A stretch of DNA of 64,000 nucleotides. Origin: Mobula hypostoma. Lineage: Eukaryota. Below the pieces are notes generated by a model, which saw only the letters and a program-made list of their open reading frames with translations, did no database searches and was not told where the DNA came from. A program made the position numbers and the translations under genes. The first letter of the stretch is position 1; each line of letters starts with the position of its first letter. The stretch spans positions 154,196,001 through 154,260,000 of the forward strand of contig NC_086097.1 in the NCBI RefSeq assembly GCF_963921235.1. Reading direction: 5' to 3'. Below, piece after piece: positions 10,916 through 28,016 of this stretch.

Positions 10916-11806
10916 TGAGACACCTTCCTCTTTTTCGTCACTGCCCTATGCTCTTTGTTTCTTTTAACACATGTAGCTCAGTCTTCATCCTACTCTTGAA
11001 ATGCTTCTTCTGGCTTTTCTCAAAAAATGGTATTCACTAAATCCTCAGTTGAAATCTCTTATCAGCATCTCATGCATTTTTTTGGGGAAAAATTCTAGTG
11101 TAGAACTTATTCCAAATGGCATATGCTTCCAGCAGTACTGCCCAAAATGCATAGGGAAGGTAATTAAATTTAACAAATGTTCATCTAAACATGTGCCAAA
11201 AATCATTCCAAATATCCAGAACAATAAATGCAATTGCACAATCTGGGCATGCAAGAATTTCTTTTACCAGCAGTAGAAAATGCTCTGTTTAAGAATCTAA
11301 AGTGATCTATCCTTATTTGACATTGACACCAACGAACTGATTCAATAATTAATATTGCTACGGCAGTCAGCCCACTCGTCTGCCCACATCATTCAGTGCT
11401 AATTTCAATTTATCAATTAAAGTCACTGGCATCCTCGAACATTTATCTTGTACCAAATCCACCATTTCATCACAAACAAGAGAAAATCTGCAAATGCTGG
11501 AAATCTAAAGCTGCGCACACAAAATGCTAGAGGAATGGGGCAGGCCAGGCAGCATCTATGCAAAAGACTAAACAGTTGATGTTTCAGGCCAAGGCCCTTC
11601 ATCAGACTGAAAAGCAAAGATAAACAACCTGATAGCATGAGCATCAAATTTTTGAACTTATAGTAATTATCCACCCCCCCGCTGCTTCAACATTTCTCAT
11701 TATTGTTTCCTTCTATCACCTTATCTTCTTATCTGCCCAACAACTCCCCCCATTCCCTTTGTTCCATGGTCTTCTATACTTTCCTATCTGATTTCTCCTT
11801 CCTATC

Positions 11807-12029
11807 TGTACTGTATAGCTATTGTATAATATGGGACTACTTTATGCTGTAGGGACACGTCATTGCATGCACTATGAGGCACGTATTCAGCATGCGTTAT
11901 TAGGTGCGTATTGATCTGTACGTGTGTGTTCAGTTCAGTTTCAGTCAGTAAAGAACCCTGTTAACTTAGCTCCCGTCTTCAGCAATTTTGTTTATAGTTT
12001 TGTTGTGTAACCCAGCCACATACACAACA
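11807..12029 (+). repeat. 5' LTR (223 bp)
   Basis: TGTACTGTATAGCT...TACACAACA. About 19 substitutions and no indels against the 3' LTR by manual count (~91.5% identity). Confidence 0.95.
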
Positions 12030-12032
12030 AAT

Positions 12033-12043
12033 TGGCGACGAGG
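12033..12043 (+). promoter_or_regulatory. Primer binding site, tRNA-Ser(GCU) type
   Basis: TGGCGACGAGG begins after a 3-nt gap downstream of the 5' LTR and is complementary to the tRNA-Ser(GCU) 3' end CCUCGUCG-CCA. Confidence 0.85.
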
Positions 12044-12394
12044 TTAATGAACCTACATCGTATCGGAACGCTGCGTTTTAATTGATAACAACGCTGGGAA
12101 GAAGAGCGCATAGAACGAGACAAGGAGCGGGAGAAGGAGGCTGCGAGTCCGAAAGGAAGCGGAAGCACAGCCGGGGTCAGGAACGTCAGGAGACCCAGAG
12201 ACACAGTCGGAGCCACAGCACATCTAGGCAAGACCACAGCAGGCACTCACCCCAGGGGCTGAGGGTCTGACTGCCCCAGAAGGGAGATAAAAAGGAACGA
12301 CACACACATCTAGACGGAGTGCGCTCTTGGCACTAGCAAAAAGGTCATGTGAGTCAAAAAAAAGGAAGAACAGGGCTAAATTAACATAACAAAG

Positions 12395-13139
12395 ATGACA
12401 ATGATTGGAACCTTTACAGCATTTGATAGTAGCATTGAAGACTGGGCAATTTACATTGAAAGAGTGGAGTTATATTGTGATGCAAACGATGTTAATGATG
12501 AAAAGAAAGCCAGCGTCTTACTCAGTATTATGGGAGCAAAATCATACGGGCTGCTATGGAGTTTGTTAACCCCTGAAAAGCAAGCTGACAAAACGGTCAA
12601 GCAAATAGTAGACACTCTCCAACAGTGTTTAAACCCCAAACCGCTGGTCATTGCTGAAAGATTTAAATTTCACAATCGGAATCAGAGCAAAAATGAAAGC
12701 ATTTCTGAATATTGTGCTGAATTGTGCAAATTCTCAGAACATTGTCAATTTGGAGCTGGTCTATCAGACGCATTGAGGGATAGGTTAGTGTGTGGCATGC
12801 ACTGTGAAACCACAGAGAAGAAGGTCCCGTGTGAAAGGGACTTTATATTAGAGAAGGCGCTGAACATTGCAATATCAACCGAAAAAGCCGCACAAAGTGC
12901 TTCCGAGATACAACAAAAATCTCTGGAATATGCTACGAATAAAATGTCACTGAGCAGAAATGAAGGGAAGAAATGTTACCGTTGTGGGAAAATGTCACAT
13001 GACCCCGATGGCTATTGGTTTAAAGATAAAGAATGCAGAAACTGTGGCAAACAGGGCCACACTGGCAGAGTATGCAAAGCTAGTAAACAGCAGAAAAAGG
13101 TCAAAATACAGAGAAACAAGAAACCCCAGAATGGAAAAT
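12395..13139 (+). pseudogene. Gypsy gag (capsid plus two Zn knuckles)
   Basis: ORF MTMIGTFTAFDSSIEDWAIYIERVELY...LRDRLVCG...CYRCGKMSH (first knuckle degenerate)...CRNCGKQGHTGRVC, interrupted by a CR1 at about 13140. Confidence 0.92.
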
Positions 13140-13141
13140 CC

Positions 13142-14312
13142 CAAGGTCCCACACAGGAGATTAGTGTGCAAACTTAAAGCACACGGTATTGGGGGTAAGG
13201 TATTGATGTGGATGGAGAATTGGTTAGCAGACAGGAAGCAAAGAGTGGGAATAAACGGGACCTTTTCAGAATGGCAGGCGGTGATTAGTGGGGTACCGCA
13301 AGGCTCAGTGCTGGGACCCCAGTTGTTTACAATATATATTGATGACTTAGACGAGGGAATGAAATGCAGCATCTCTAAGTTTGCAGATGACATGAAGCTG
13401 GGCGGCAGTGTTAGCTGTGAGGAGGATGCTAACAGGATGCAGGGTGACTTGGATAGTTTAGGTGAGTGGGCAAATTTATGACAGATGCAATTTAATGTGG
13501 ATAAATGTGAGGTTATCCACTTTGGTGGCAAGAACAGGAAAACAGATTATCTGAATGGTGGCCGATTAGGAAAAGGGGAGGTGCAACGAGACCTGGGTGT
13601 CATTGTACACCAGTCATTGAAAGTGGGCATGCAGGTACAGCAGGCGGTAAAAAAGGCGAATGGTATGCTGGCATTCATAGCAAGAGGATTCGAGTACAGG
13701 AGCAGGGAGGTACTACTGCAGTTGTACAAGGCCTTGGTGAGACCACACCTGGAGTATTGTGTGCAGTTTTGGTCCCCTAATCTGAGGAAAGACATCCTTG
13801 CCATAGACGGAGTACAAAGAAGGTTCACCAGATTGATTCCTGGGATGGCATGACTTTCATATGATGAAAGAATGGATCGACTAGGCTTATACTCTCTGGA
13901 ATTTAGAAGATTGGGGGGGGATCTTATTGAAACATATAAAACTCTAAAGGGATTGGACAGGCTAGATGTAGGAAGATGGTTCCCGATGTTGGGGAAGTCC
14001 GGAACGAGGGGTCACAGTTTGAGGATAAAGGGGAAGCCTCTTAGGACCGAGATGAGGAAAAACTTCTTCACACAGAGAGTGGTGAATCTGTGGGATTCTC
14101 TGCCACATGAAACAGTTCAGGCAAGTTCATTGGTTATATTTAAGAGGGAGTTAGATATGGCCCTTGTGGCTAAAGGGATCAGCGGGTATGGAGAGAAGGC
14201 AGGTATAGGATTCTGAGTTGGATGATCAGCCATGATCATACTGAATGTCAGTGCAGGCTCGAAGGGCTGATTGGCCTACTCCTGCACCTATTTTCTATGT
14301 TTCTATGTTTCT
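13142..14312 (+). mobile_element. 5'-truncated CR1 LINE inserted between gag and protease
   Basis: KVPHRRLVCKL...GVPQGSVLGP...SKFADD...LVRPHLEYCVQFWSP, ending in a (TTCTATGT)n tail. AAAAT occurs on both flanks. Confidence 0.93.
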
Positions 14313-14775
14313 AAAATACAAGGTACACAAAATGAAAGACGGCAGTTCTGCTGAAAACGAATCCGATGAAAGTGAATTGTCTTGTCTGCAACTTCACGCT
14401 GTGAAAGAGACAGATGATGGAAGAGTAATATGGATCACTCCACAAGTGACAGGTGTGAGACTGAAAATGCAGTTGGACACAGGCTCAGCTTTAACAGTGA
14501 TCTCTGTACATGACTACAAACTACTGTTTTCGCACATACCTCTGAAATGATCGAAACTTCTACAAAAAACTTACACAGGACAGAAAGTACGTCCTGAAGG
14601 CAAAATTAAAGTGACAATGACCTACAGTGATAAAACACAGCAACTGAACCTCTATGTACTGAAAAATAGAGGACCATCATTGCTGGGACGTGAATGACTC
14701 AGGAAAATCCAGTTGGATTGGCACACCATCAAGGCACTAGATGTGTCAACAAAGGAGGGCAGCTTGGCAGGGAAG
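14313..14775 (+). pseudogene. Gypsy aspartic protease region
   Basis: KYKVHKM...LKMQLDTGSALTVIS...KTYTG...GPSLLGRE*LRKIQLDW in one frame, with two premature TGA stops (14548, 14695). Confidence 0.9.
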
Positions 14776-15385
14776 ATGTCCGCAGCTCTCCTCTCACCCA
14801 TTGTCAACTATTACAACGATAAGGAGGAGCTAGACAGCATCAACAGGGAGACAGATATTGCCAATAAAGCAGGATGATGAAGACCACCTGGAAGTAAAAG
14901 AGCAGATGCACCAGGAGAAATTGACATCTCTCAAAAGACAGTTACAGGAAGGCATTTTACATAAGTATCAGAAAAGGATGAAGAAATTAGATCAACAATA
15001 CAAGGGAAGGATATGAAATGCAGAGCTTTTCCTGCAACTGGAGACAGAACAAGTGGAAAGGAACTGTATTAAAGAGAAGAAGGCAGCAGTGAAGGAACTT
15101 GAAGATAAAAAGATTGAGTTAAAAGAAAAGAAAAAGTTGATTGAGAATGAGAGGCTAACAATGGAACTCACAGGAGATTCTATGGAGGTAAAGCCAATAA
15201 TGACTAGGAAACTAAGGAGGAGAACTAATGATCCTGTTCCAATTACAGACAGAAGACGAAAACCTGCACCTGCGCAGTTAAATTACTTGTTAACAGATGA
15301 ACAGATAATGAAAGATCTGCAAACTCTCAATAAGCTTAAATCGCTGAAAAGATCATCATCTCCATCTTCTCCTGAACAATTTCCT
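14776..15385 (+). pseudogene. SUDS3: Processed (intronless) SUDS3/SDS3 copy, start codon to about SSPSSPE, captured in the LTR element
   Basis: MSAALLSP...[21 protein letters not shown]...[13 protein letters not shown]...[16 protein letters not shown]...[49 protein letters not shown] closely matches vertebrate SDS3. It has a frameshift near 14865 and a TGA at 15014. Confidence 0.95.
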
Positions 15386-16219
15386 TGGGAAAGATCCATG
15401 AAAATTGGTCATCCCTTAAAAGCTCTTAGACAAAATCAATTCCATTCAAACAAAACAGCTTTCGCACAAGGTAAATCTTGAACCAATCATTTCCTCCATT
15501 GAGAGTCATACACTTCATCCTTTGCAGGGAAGTTTCTTTTTGCACGTACATATTTTGAATCCTCAGCCAATGTGTCTTGTTTTGCACAAAGAAGTTGGGA
15601 AACAGCATCAGAGCAGAGGCGAATTCTGGCAACAAACTAAGTTTTCTGTTGTTGCATTTTCACACTCGTGCTGAATGCGCATCTGATGGAATCCTCCCTC
15701 TTGAGCTAGGTACGCAATCTTTTCTTGCACTGTGCACAACTGGGATTTTTCACACATAGGATCCTCCAAACAATTCAGAAACAGTGCATAGAGTTCAGTC
15801 TCATTTTCTTGACCAAGATTTGTTTTTTTTTAAACTTCAGACAGATAGCACTGCAAGTAATCCTTAATATCAGCAAAACTGTACTTTAACAGCAGCTTAA
15901 GAACAATGGAACAAACAACAGGATTTCGATCAACTGCTTCATCAAATGGTGAAAGATTACTGATAAAGTACTGATCTTTCTGTGAGTTATCATTGGATTG
16001 CCCTGACTTTTGAATAACTAGCATAGACAGCAGATCACCAACCACTTCTTTTGTTGGTGCCAAGTCATCTTTGAAGCAAACCATGGAAAACAAAGCTACG
16101 AAAAATGCATCACACCTCTTGCGAAATATGACTAATTTTGCTACAGCTTCACTTATTTCTTCTGTTGCCGCTGGTACATAACCATCATCTAGAGAAGTAT
16201 GGCACAGTGGGCAGAGTCC
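15372..16219 (-). pseudogene. RNF213: Processed RNF213 (mysterin)-like cDNA fragment, from the end of the RING domain into the E3 region, antisense to the LTR element
   Basis: Minus strand reads GLCPLCHTSLDDGY...FRKRCDAFFVALFSMVCFKD...LSPFDEAVDRNPVVCSIVLKLLLKYSFADIKDYLQ...TELYALFLNCLED...VARIRLC...[12 protein letters not shown]...WIFPKE. This is colinear with recalled RNF213 (LSPFNDVVDKTPVIRSVILKLLLKYSF; NDWHRVYLVRKL; WVFPKD). Stops and frameshifts are present and there are no introns. Confidence 0.92.
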
Positions 16220-16413
16220 CCCCAGACCCTTGAGTTATAAATGGGTCTTCGACCAAAAGTAAAAGAAGGGCTTGTTATAATTTAATATTATTATTTTACT
16301 TTGTTATAATTGATATTATTAAGTAGTAAACAATTGGTAGCCATTTGTATGTTAAGGGTAAACATATTTGCATAGCACAGTGCCCCAGTAAAAAAAACAG
16401 TTGATACACTATT

Positions 16414-16431
16414 AAAATAAAAGGGGAGGAG
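16414..16431 (+). promoter_or_regulatory. Polypurine tract
   Basis: AAAATAAAAGGGGAGGAG immediately precedes the TG of the 3' LTR. Confidence 0.88.
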
Positions 16432-16654
16432 TGTACTGTATAGCTACCGTATAACATGGGACGACTTTATGCTGTAGGGACACGTCATTGCATGCTCTAT
16501 GAGGCACGTATTCAGCATGCGTTATTAGGCGCATATTGATCTGTACATGTGTATACAGTTCTGTTTCAGTCAGTAAAGAACCCTGTTAACTTAGCTCCCG
16601 TCTCCAGCGTTTTTATTTATAGCTTTGTTGTGTAACCTGGCCATATACACAACA
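16432..16654 (+). repeat. 3' LTR (223 bp)
   Basis: Direct repeat of 11807-12029. Confidence 0.95.
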
Positions 16655-17260
16655 GTCTCCTTCACCAAAGAACCTCCTACCTCTTTACTTCACCCCTCCC
16701 CCTTTCCTGGTTTTACCTATCATCTGCCACCTCTACTTCTTCCTCCCCTCCCGCACCTTCTTACTCTGACTTCCTCTTCCTTTCCAGTCCTGATGAAGTG
16801 TCTTATCTTGAAACATCAGCTGTTTGCTCTTTTCCATAGATGCTGCCTGGCCTGCTGAGCTTCCCCAGCATTTTGTGTGTGTTACTACTATTTCATTTAG
16901 TCTGATTTGGCATCCTGCTTTAAGTTTTCCAATTGTGTCAGGGCTTCTTTGCTTGAATCGAATATCGCTATGATGATTATACATTCTAGTATCAATTGTT
17001 TGGTGACAATAAAGTATAAAGATAAGAAAGATAAGAAGATAAGAAAGGTAAACATCACTTGATTAATGGCTATTAGTCATTTAATACAAGTCAAGACTCT
17101 AGTTGATGGTGTTTTCTTATCATTATTTTTATAATATCTCTGATAAAATATGCAGAGATTTTATAGTAGTACCATCCACAAACTTAAAATGTCCCCGACC
17201 TGTGCTGAATCAATAATTGTACCTACTCACCAAATCGAAGCTAAAAACTACCATAAGTTA

Positions 17261-26004: not shown

Positions 26005-27590
26005 AAACAAGAGAAAATCCGCAGATGCCAGAAATCCAAGCAATACACACAGAGTGCTGGAGGAATGCAGCAGGCCAGGCAGCATCTATGGAAAAGAGTA
26101 CAGTCGACGTTTCAAGCCGAGACCCTTTGGCAGGACTGGAGAAAAAATGCTGAGGAGTAGAGTTAAAAGGATGGGGGAACGGGAGAGAGAAACACACACA
26201 ACCTGAAGGGGGAAGGATGAAGTAAAGAGCCGGGAAGTTGATTGGTGAAAGAGAAACAGGGCTGGAGAAGGAGGAATCTGACAGCAGAGGACAGAAGGCC
26301 ATGGAAGAAAGAAAAGCAGAGAGGAGCATCTGAGGGAGGTGATGGGTGGGCAAGGAGATAAGGTGAGAGAGGGAAAAGGGGATGGGGAATACTGTAGGAG
26401 AGTGGCTTGGGGCGGTGGGTGGCATTATCAGAAGTTCGAGAAATCCATGTTCATGCCATCAGGTTGGAGGCTACCCAGATGGAATATAAAGTGTTATTTC
26501 TCTAACCTGAGTGTGGCCTCATCACGATAGAGGAGAGGCCATGGATAGACATATCGGAATGGGAATGGGACGTGGAATTAAAATGAGTGGCCACTGAGAG
26601 ACGCCGCTTCTTCTGGTGGACAGAGGGTAGGTGCTCGGTGAAGCGGTCTCCCAATCTACATCAAGTCTCACTGGTATACAGGAGGCCACACCGGGACCAC
26701 CACACACAGTATATGACCCCAACAGATTCACAGGTGAAGTGTTGCCTCACCTGGAAGGACTGTTTGGGGCCTGAATGGTAGTGAGGGAGGAGGTGTAGGG
26801 GCAGGTGTGGCACTTGTTCTGCTTGCAAGGATAAGTGCCAGGAGGGAGATCAGAGGGGAGAGAGGAATGAACAGGAGGGTATAACAGTCCTTCCAGGTGA
26901 GGTGACACTTCACCTGTGAGTCTATTGGGGACATATACCATGTCCGGTGATCCTGGTGTGGCCTCCTGTATATCGTTAAGACCCAACATAGACTAGGAGA
27001 CCGGTTCGCTGAGCACCTTCGCTCCATTCACCAGGAGAATCGGGATCTCCCGGTGGCCATCCATTTAAACTCCACTTCCCATTCCCATTCCGGTATGTCA
27101 ATCTATGGCCTCCTCCACTGTTGCGATGAGGCCACACTTAGGTTGGATGACTTATATTCCAACTGGGTAATCTCCAACCTGATGACATGAACATCGATTT
27201 CTCAAACTTCAAGCAATGTCCCCCCCGCCTTCACCATTCCCCATCCCCTTTTCCCTCTCTCACCTCATCACCTTACCCGCCCATCCTCTCCCTCTGGTAC
27301 TCCTCTCCATATCCTTTCTTCCATGACCCTCCGTCCTCTTCGATCAGACACCCCTCCTTCTCCAACCCTGTATCTCTTTCACCAATCAACCTCCTAATTC
27401 GTTACTTCATCCCTCCCCTTCAGGTTTCACCTATCACCTTGTGTTTCTCTCTCCTCTCGCCAACCTTTTAAATCTACTCCTCAGCAATTATTCTCCAGTC
27501 CTGCCGAAGGCGCTCAGCCTGAAGCATCAACTGCACTCTTTTCCATAGATGCTGCTTGACCTGGTGAGTTCCTCCAACAGTTTGTGTGTG
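26005..27590. mobile_element. Penelope-like element, inverted (back-to-back) structure with GIY-YIG remnants on both arms
   Basis: Left arm (minus) reads TYPCKQNKCHTCPY...SFQVRQHFTCESVGVIYC...RLGDRFTEH. The right arm (plus) starts at about 26883 with the same sequence. 15-bp TSD tagggagattttcac / tagggaggttttcac. Confidence 0.88.
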
Positions 27591-28016
27591 TAGGGAGGTT
27601 TTCACGCTGATCACAGTATTAAACCTTGACCTGCACTATTCAAAGTGGCACCTTCATCCATCTTTTGCTGCCCAGTTCCATGGGAATAAGTCAATGATTG
27701 AAGGAGCAAATTCCACGGCACCCAGAGGCGGGGGAGCATAGGTTAATAGTTTGGGGGGGGGGGGAGGTCACTCTCATTGCAAGAGCAGACCGCTGTCCCT
27801 GTGAGGCATGAACTCACATCCCCACACCAATCTTTGCTGTGCTCGTATACAATCAGTACCATGAGACCCAGCAATAATATGTGAAATATACAGTACAGAG
27901 CATTAAAACACAGCCAGGTCAGGCAACACCTGTGGAAAGAGAATGAGTTAATGTTGCAGGTCTGAAATACTTTTTCAGAACAACTCCAGGGCTTTGGATC
28001 TGAAAGCTTAATTCCG

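What the first reader, a model, noticed from the sequence alone, without database searches (positions are those of the whole stretch)
11807..16654. LTR retrotransposon whose pol is replaced by two captured host mRNAs (SUDS3 and antisense RNF213)
Seen in sequence: LTR - PBS - gag - protease - SUDS3 cDNA - inverted RNF213 cDNA - short 3' remnant - PPT - LTR, with all cis signals kept and no RT, RNase H or integrase core. Neither insert has introns, a poly(A) tail or its own TSD, so they do not look like LINE-made processed pseudogenes that landed here. Established: template switching onto co-packaged cellular RNA produces transducing retroviruses and LTR-mediated retrocopies. Inference: this is a gene-transducing non-autonomous Mag-like element, mobilised in trans after two captures. 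I know of no description of such an element in a cartilaginous fish.
Basis: partly seen in the sequence, partly recalled or inferred. Interest (0 to 1): 0.93.

Follow-up and report, generated by a model that had tools for sequence, protein, structure and literature searches.

The report
Ray retrotransposon carrying two captured genes
This is one decayed copy of a jumping-gene family in a ray that swapped its copying enzymes for a spliced copy of the gene-silencing factor SUDS3, later gained a backwards piece of RNF213, and multiplied with that cargo to hundreds of places, which probably explains why SUDS3 has so many copies in these fishes.

Summary
Real, and a family. The window holds LTR, tRNA-Ser primer site, gag, protease, spliced SUDS3 (sense, in frame with gag-protease), spliced RNF213 (antisense), integrase tail, PPT, LTR. 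Both parent genes were found with introns; 13 of 14 exon joins are precise. Sister forms give the order of events: pol-bearing form; form A (whole SUDS3 replaces pol, 7-nt microhomology; roughly 300+ copies); form C (RNF213 inserted backwards into SUDS3 with a short target duplication; 3 copies checked); form B, this one (jump to the integrase tail; at least 40, roughly 80 copies). So RNF213 was first an insertion into SUDS3, and a LINE-type origin of that step is not excluded. Copies have 5-bp TSDs, LTR divergence about 9%, and recombined with each other. No selection on the SUDS3 frame is detectable. LTR-mediated capture is known (Tan 2016; crocodilian ERVs; Bs1); the scale, stacked steps and antisense insert are the new part. 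A 2026 preprint lists SUDS3 as a top retrocopy parent in cartilaginous fishes without this mechanism. The scan noted other copies of this family before.

The parts
11807..12029 (+). 5' LTR, 223 nt, TG...CA; 5-nt left flank matches the right flank at 3 of 5 positions
12033..12043 (+). primer-binding site, 11 nt complementary to the 3' end of tRNA-Ser(GCT)
12395..13139 (+). gag (zinc-knuckle region; 67% to P0124, 62% to single-ORF Gypsy polyprotein P0125), interrupted by the LINE
13140..14312 (+). CR1-type LINE 3' fragment (RT piece, short tandem tail) with its own 5-bp duplication at 13135-13139 / 14313-14317; later insertion, private to this copy
   Evidence: 'CR1-type' is recalled from the tail and RT likeness, no family library was searched
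14318..14763 (+). end of gag and aspartic protease region, broken by stop codons in this copy; last 7 nt (14757-14763) are shared by the pol linker and the SUDS3 5' UTR
14764..15375 (+). spliced SUDS3 mRNA: 12 nt of 5' UTR, start codon at 14776 in frame with protease, exons 1 to start of 10; 24-nt family-wide gap in the coiled-coil exon, 57-nt sub-lineage gap; stops and frameshift in this copy
15368..15375 (+). middle join: 7 nt shared with the RNF213 gene, 8 nt with its spliced mRNA
15369..16218 (-). spliced RNF213 mRNA piece, six exons, antisense to the element, 88-97% per exon to the parent
16219..16240 (+). last codons and stop of the integrase reading frame of the pol-bearing form
16241..16431 (+). 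element 3' untranslated stretch ending in the polypurine tract (16419-16431)
16432..16654 (+). 3' LTR; K2P distance to 5' LTR 0.092

Best explanation
A non-autonomous Ty3/Gypsy (Mag-like) LTR element that carries host mRNA as passive cargo. Step 1 (structure shown, mechanism inferred): during minus-strand synthesis RT left the integrase tail for a co-packaged SUDS3 mRNA and came back at a 7-nt microhomology just after protease, replacing about 2.8 kb of pol with the whole SUDS3 coding sequence (form A). Step 2 (structure shown in pieces, mechanism inferred): the 3' end of an element plus strand, complementary over 8 nt to spliced RNF213 mRNA, primed on that mRNA, copied about 1.2 kb towards its 5' end and rejoined about 20 nt upstream of where it left; this gives the antisense orientation, no poly(A) and a short duplication (ancestor of forms B and C). 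I favour this happening inside the particle as an out-and-back switch. Step 3 (shown by nested ends): later jumps to the integrase tail removed the last third of SUDS3 and gave form B, the window's form. All forms kept LTRs, PBS and PPT, were copied with RT and integrase of pol-bearing relatives (inferred; they have none), recombined with one another, and have decayed neutrally since.
For: Cassette at 40 places, 84-94% alike (40 of 521 candidates scored). SUDS3 C-terminal part intronless at 150 of 150 places scored (391 candidates). Exon-10 motif: 204 exact hits, first 100 listed = 81 A-type, 19 B-type (counted by hand); it is exact in 14 of 30 B loci, so roughly 440 copies in all. 5' join motif: 255 hits, first 100 = 48 pol-side, 52 SUDS3-side (by hand). 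Pol-bearing copies share LTR, gag, protease and 3' end at 80-88% (L065, L049). 7-nt microhomology at the 5' join with the host 5' UTR. TSDs in 15 copies with both ends readable: 7 exact 5 bp, 4 at 4 of 5, 1 exact after a 1-nt shift, window 3 of 5, 2 unclear (by eye). LTR-LTR K2P median 0.089, n=18, same range for A, B and pol-bearing copies. All four combinations of two deletion markers occur among 30 B loci; A, B and pol-bearing gag-protease are mixed on a star-like tree, B as one clade p-AU 0.049. Among B copies pN/pS is 0.68 for SUDS3 and 0.72 for antisense RNF213, no lower than in shifted frames. Contigs of runs from organisms B, C and E bridge the protease-SUDS3 join, C the middle join, B the 3' join (table 8).
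Against: The RNF213 piece is flanked by a duplication in form C, which is also the mark of target-primed LINE insertion. The full ancestral insertion (B's left join with C's right join) was not seen in one copy. The dominant B 3' join is not a clean microhomology (a 7-nt shared word ends 2 nt before it). gag and protease of B copies show pN/pS about 0.5, so 'wholly passive' may understate cis use of Gag. The AU test is borderline, and pol-bearing copies as a clade were not rejected (p 0.34). Mobilisation in trans was not shown directly.
Confidence: 0.68

Rival explanations
1. Same history, but RNF213 entered by a LINE-type or repair-type event in the chromosome: a nick in a genomic form-A copy primed reverse transcription internally on RNF213 mRNA, leaving a target duplication; that copy was then transcribed and amplified by the LTR machinery.
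For: 10-nt duplication around the RNF213 piece in 3 of 3 form-C copies, 19-22 nt inferred from B's left join; priming-end microhomology fits equally; LINEs are abundant and one sits in this very copy.
Against: No poly(A) and the piece lies about 3 kb from the end of the RNF213 coding sequence; the part of RNF213 just downstream has only exon-wise matches in the genome (8 matches, 59 of 59 candidates scored); the LINE insertion seen here has a 5-bp duplication, not about 20.
Confidence: 0.22
2. The captured SUDS3 was useful to the element: a Gag-protease-SUDS3 polyprotein released an altered Sin3/HDAC subunit that weakened silencing, or the host-like sequence shielded the element from small-RNA silencing.
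For: Whole coding sequence captured, in frame with protease in 35 of 38 copies and gag-protease in frame in 34 of 37; both shared SUDS3 deletions (24 and 57 nt) keep the frame, against 12 of 36 private ones; the 24-nt gap lies in the coiled-coil construct of PDB 4zqa, the dimerising part (PMC8800102, passages); SUDS3-side joins at least match pol-side joins in number.
Against: pN/pS of SUDS3 among copies equals the neutral control (0.68 [0.54-0.85] vs 0.72 [0.59-0.87]); only 6 of 30 B copies are free of stops and frameshifts; an in-frame join has a 1 in 3 chance; forms B and C, which break SUDS3, also multiplied; other cargo families are noted in this genome (unchecked scan notes), which suggests cargo identity need not matter. 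The test used B copies only, and short inner branches give it little power.
Confidence: 0.08
3. Copies spread as DNA (segmental duplication) or the locus is a misassembly.
For: This copy's TSD is degenerate.
Against: Copies on more than 15 contigs with unrelated flanks, own TSDs and own LTR pairs; joins bridged in contigs of other organisms.
Confidence: 0.02

Closest known systems
LTR-mediated retrocopies of animals (Tan et al. 2016, PMC5131818; passages and section 6 read)
   Same: Partial spliced mRNA between discontinuous LTR-element parts, microsimilarity at joins, no poly(A); two-gene and four-gene chimeras are described; 5 of 7 zebrafish cases.
   Different: In the passages read these are single loci. 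Here the chimera became a family of hundreds, the intermediate forms survive, and one insert is antisense with a target duplication. No shark or ray is covered ('shark' 0 hits).
Crocodilian ERVs CrocERV29 (KIT-ligand) and CrocERV31 (nectin3) (PMC4299795; passages read)
   Same: Vertebrate LTR elements that captured a whole host mRNA and then multiplied across species.
   Different: Retroviral, 9 and 6 copies with ORFs, purifying selection reported; here Gypsy, pol lost, 30-50 times more copies, no selection signal, second capture.
Maize Bs1 (review PMC13317346; passages read)
   Same: LTR element with segments of several host genes from successive captures.
   Different: Plant element; its segments form a new transcribed, translated ORF. 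Here a whole coding sequence is fused to gag-protease and the second piece is antisense.
Mag family of Ty3/Gypsy in fishes (PMC11117352; passages and Table 2 read)
   Same: Pol-bearing form is 4,952 nt with 200-223-nt LTRs and one gag-pol frame, domain order PR-RT-RH-IN; Mag1/2 are 4.7-4.8 kb, LTR about 210, 1330-1365 aa.
   Different: Clade membership by RT tree was not tested; one V-clade element in the same table also has a single frame.
Acutely transforming retroviruses with gag-onc fusions (recalled, no call)
   Same: Host coding sequence in frame with gag in place of pol, helper-dependent.
   Different: No env, germ-line retrotransposition, no evidence of a selected function.

Membership tests
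Ty3/Gypsy LTR retrotransposon | Paired LTRs TG...CA, PBS, PPT | tested here: met
Ty3/Gypsy LTR retrotransposon | pol order protease-RT-RNase H-integrase in the autonomous form; closest solved relative Ty3 | tested here: met
   L065 aligns to P0125 over residues 1-1286; Pfam order; Ty3 Gag-Pol best PDB hit, E 1e-81
Ty3/Gypsy LTR retrotransposon | Short fixed-length TSD | tested here: met
   5 bp: 7 exact and 4 near-exact of 15 readable copies; window copy itself 3 of 5
Mag clade | About 4.7 kb, LTR 200-300 nt, single gag-pol ORF | tested here: met
Mag clade | RT groups with named Mag elements on a tree | not tested
   no named reference sequences were returned by any tool
LTR-mediated retrocopy (Tan 2016) | Intronless host sequence with precise exon joins, parent with introns | tested here: met
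   13 of 14 joins precise; parents at C78:8.38-8.44 Mb and C68:48.81-48.85 Mb
LTR-mediated retrocopy (Tan 2016) | Microsimilarity at switch points | tested here: met
   7 nt at 5' join, 7-8 nt at middle join, 3 nt at form-C right join; imperfect at 3' joins
LTR-mediated retrocopy (Tan 2016) | No poly(A) and no TSD around the insert: SUDS3 | tested here: met
LTR-mediated retrocopy (Tan 2016) | No poly(A) and no TSD around the insert: RNF213 | tested here: inconclusive
   no poly(A); none visible in the window, but a 10-nt duplication flanks it in 3 form-C copies
Non-autonomous element mobilised in trans | Many independent integrations lacking RT and integrase, contemporaneous with pol-bearing copies | tested here: met
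Non-autonomous element mobilised in trans | Direct demonstration of trans-mobilisation | not testable with these tools
   family is old and decayed
Functional transduced gene (v-onc or CrocERV type) | Purifying selection on the captured frame | tested here: not met
   pN/pS 0.68 vs 0.72 control among 29 B copies; low power, form A not tested

The most novel reading that the evidence does not exclude
The element captured a core subunit of the Sin3/HDAC repressor as an in-frame Gag-protease-SUDS3 fusion, shortened its dimerising coiled coil by 8 residues, and used it (as a decoy protein or as host-like camouflage) to escape silencing during a burst that made it as numerous as its pol-bearing parent: a vertebrate LTR element with a host-derived anti-silencing gene.
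Probability: 0.1. Interest if true: 0.9.

Novelty: new variant of a known kind. Interest (0 to 1): 0.62.

Why it matters
A survey of 244 vertebrate genomes names SUDS3 among the top retrocopy parents in cartilaginous fishes and reads such lists as germ-line expression plus selective retention driven by non-LTR elements (bioRxiv 10.64898/2026.06.26.734816, passages). Here hundreds of SUDS3 copies trace to one capture and the burst of an LTR element, so copy counts of this kind need not reflect many retroposition events or selection; the other genes on that list can be tested the same way. The family also preserves a rare step-by-step record (pol-bearing, A, C, B) of how cargo is gained, trimmed and shuffled, including a spliced mRNA taken up backwards. 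It explains 'SDS3-like' gene models in Mobula annotations (6 of 120 proteins share the family's 8-residue gap, all Mobula).

Tried and rejected
Single-locus oddity or misassembly: rejected. Intronless parents: rejected. Pre-existing long RNF213 pseudogene: none found downstream of the captured part, absence not proven. Selection on SUDS3: not found; the low ratio against the host (0.19-0.29 for shared differences) is explained by constraint on the host gene (5 synonymous, 2 non-synonymous near-fixed differences). Long open frames among form-A hits (4 of 150 with 317 aa or more and no stop in the match) are about what neutral decay gives. A first pattern for host exon 1 found nothing; a looser one found it. 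An ungapped TSD script placed only 8 of 18 pairs, some wrongly; TSD counts come by eye. Extra inserts in 10 copies were known repeats or pol remnants or unassigned, none shown to be a third mRNA. Two long-spaced A-type copies were other insertions, not form C (L087-L090). Expression: no RNA holder listed; the one run guessed to be RNA gave host SUDS3 and RNF213 contigs and no listed piece that bridges a join; no conclusion. Dating: the epaulette-shark rate (7e-10 per generation, PMC10587355, passages) would give about 6e7 generations, not usable. PMC5880236 and PMC2774666 (passages) gave nothing relevant; a search for antisense capture by retroviral recombination listed 3 reviews, not read. 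No structure or complex was predicted: a pass would follow from likeness to the solved Sds3 coiled coil. Only about 90 short loci of the genome could be read, so most form-A copies are known from coordinates only.
Full report
What is in the window. Two 223-nt direct repeats, 91% alike, bound the element at 11807-12029 and 16432-16654. The primer site matches tRNA-Ser(GCT): a motif built on it found 16 loci, 2 of 2 fetched are tRNA-Ser(GCT), and 11 nt pair. gag starts at 12395; its closest full-length relatives are single-frame Gypsy polyproteins of about 1310 aa. After protease come SUDS3 in sense and RNF213 in antisense, then 22 nt of integrase tail, the 3' stretch, PPT and LTR. This copy's protease and SUDS3 parts carry stops and frameshifts.

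Parents. The 24 nt missing from the SUDS3 insert occur exactly once in the 3.48-Gb genome, at C78:8.40 Mb. That gene has 12 exons over about 60 kb and gives a 319-aa protein, identical at all 319 positions to a Mobula birostris SUDS3, so the host is a ray of that kinship; I did not identify the assembly. RNF213 lies exon by exon at C68:48.81-48.85 Mb. Against these, 8 of 9 SUDS3 joins and 5 of 5 RNF213 joins in the window are precise; the ninth falls in a deletion. One removed intron has AT-AC ends.

Family. The two-gene cassette matches 40 places at 84-94% (40 of 521 candidates scored), colinear with gag, protease and LTR. The SUDS3 part that the window lacks matches, without introns, 150 of 150 places scored (391 candidates). 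Two such copies read end to end are LTR-gag-protease-whole SUDS3-3' UTR-integrase tail-LTR: form A. Pol-bearing copies with the same LTR exist; most of those listed carry stops. About 2.8 kb of pol is missing from cargo forms. Exact-motif counts: 204 for the exon-10 site, 81 A-type and 19 B-type among the first 100 listed; 255 for the 5' join, 48 pol-side and 52 SUDS3-side among the first 100; both counted by hand. The first motif is exact in 14 of 30 B loci, which gives roughly 440 SUDS3-bearing copies, about 80 of form B; these are rough. Of 15 copies with both ends readable, 7 have an exact 5-bp TSD, 4 have 4 of 5, 1 is exact after a 1-nt shift, the window has 3 of 5 and 2 are unclear. LTR pairs differ by K2P 0.066-0.160, median 0.089, n=18, alike for all forms: one old burst, which I cannot date. 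Contigs from coded organisms B, C and E bridge the protease-SUDS3 join, C the middle join and B the 3' join (4 of 23 listed runs laid). Six of 120 proteins share the 8-residue gap, all annotated in two Mobula species.

Joins and order. At the 5' join the pol linker and the host 5' UTR share 7 nt; 12 nt of UTR follow, then the start codon, in frame with protease in 35 of 38 copies, with gag-protease in frame in 34 of 37. At the middle join SUDS3 and antisense RNF213 share 7 nt, 8 with the spliced mRNA; 30 of 30 B loci have this join. An earlier scan note (e1-7790731) pointed to a copy in which RNF213 splits SUDS3. I fetched it: SUDS3 runs to position 675-677, RNF213 follows in antisense and reaches further upstream than in any B copy, and SUDS3 resumes at 668 and runs to its end. 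Two more copies chosen by spacing have the same two joins; two others chosen the same way held unrelated insertions. So form C has a 10-nt duplication around RNF213. B keeps more RNF213 on the left, C more on the right, and they share a deletion of about 129 nt in some copies, so the common ancestor was an insertion of about 1.2 kb with a 19-22-nt duplication (inferred), and B arose by jumps to the integrase tail (two nested ends).

Mechanism. SUDS3 in sense, with element sequence on both sides, microhomology and no poly(A), fits two minus-strand switches on a co-packaged mRNA as described by Tan et al. (PMC5131818). An antisense spliced piece cannot come from that step. It follows if an element plus-strand end primed directly on the mRNA, which the 8-nt complementarity allows, and then rejoined slightly upstream, which gives the duplication. 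This can be an out-and-back switch in the particle or an internally primed LINE-type or repair event in the chromosome; I put them at about 3 to 1 and cannot separate them here. Later co-packaging is shown by all four combinations of two deletion markers among 30 B loci and by a star-like gag-protease tree of 36 rows that mixes forms (B as one clade p-AU 0.049 on 30 rows, six rows of unknown form left out; pol-bearing pair p 0.34).

Function. Among 24-29 B copies pN/pS is 0.51 for gag and 0.53 for protease (0.60-0.83 in shifted frames), 0.68 for SUDS3 (0.54, 0.77 shifted) and 0.72 for RNF213 in its own frame. SUDS3 thus looks neutral. Hints the other way are the in-frame join and 2 of 2 shared deletions keeping frame against 12 of 36 private ones. 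The test lacks form A and has short inner branches, so a useful cargo is unlikely but not excluded.

Known and new. The mechanism is in print for animals, two-gene chimeras included (PMC5131818: passages and section 6), as are multi-copy captures in crocodilian ERVs (PMC4299795: passages) and Bs1 (PMC13317346: passages). The pol-bearing form fits the size, LTR length and single frame given for Mag (PMC11117352: passages, table); no clade tree was made. A 2026 preprint lists SUDS3 among top retrocopy parents in cartilaginous fishes and ties non-mammalian retrocopies to CR1 or Tx1 LINEs (passages; its supplements were not seen and may hold more). Ten searches listed no paper on this family; the library lacks most subscription journals and Repbase was not searchable. 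The scan itself noted other copies of this family. Verdict: a new variant of a known kind, notable for scale, for the preserved series of forms and for the antisense insertion; interest 0.62.

Noticed in passing
L063 (host SUDS3, intron between exons 7 and 8); window 15272/15273: This intron has AT-AC ends (minor-spliceosome type, label recalled) and is removed precisely in the insert, so the template was a fully spliced mRNA.
   Followed up: partly
L011:2870-3027: A form-B copy with a longer RNF213 piece crossing one more exon join before the integrase tail; ends of C, L011 and the usual B are nested.
   Followed up: yes
L066 and L067: Form A has at least two 3' joins, after about 340 and 110 nt of SUDS3 3' UTR.
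   Followed up: partly
window 16089, run X17: One contig runs from the RNF213 piece into SUDS3 3' UTR-like sequence, perhaps a further recombinant form (table 7); single contig.
   Followed up: no
L041, L054, L057: Internally deleted derivatives that join gag or protease to the integrase tail with no host insert.
   Followed up: partly
L025 = G000:C1:154333946-154337881: A second form-B copy 124 kb from the window.
   Followed up: partly
G000:C68:41.30 Mb: Exon-wise matches to a second RNF213-like gene, 51-57% to the skate protein; not the donor by identity.
   Followed up: no
window 11516-11617 and 16656-16894: The element sits among short interspersed repeats found many times in the window; the two flanks match neighbouring parts of another repeat copy at 27175-27591 with a gap.
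   Followed up: partly
gag and protease of L002-L030: Synonymous diversity is about 1.6 times that of the inserts and pN/pS about 0.5 in the true frame: either exchange with diverse pol-bearing partners or selection on Gag made in cis.
   Followed up: partly
scan notes: Unchecked notes report other Gypsy families in this genome carrying RBM25, USP35 or MYH16 pieces.
   Followed up: no
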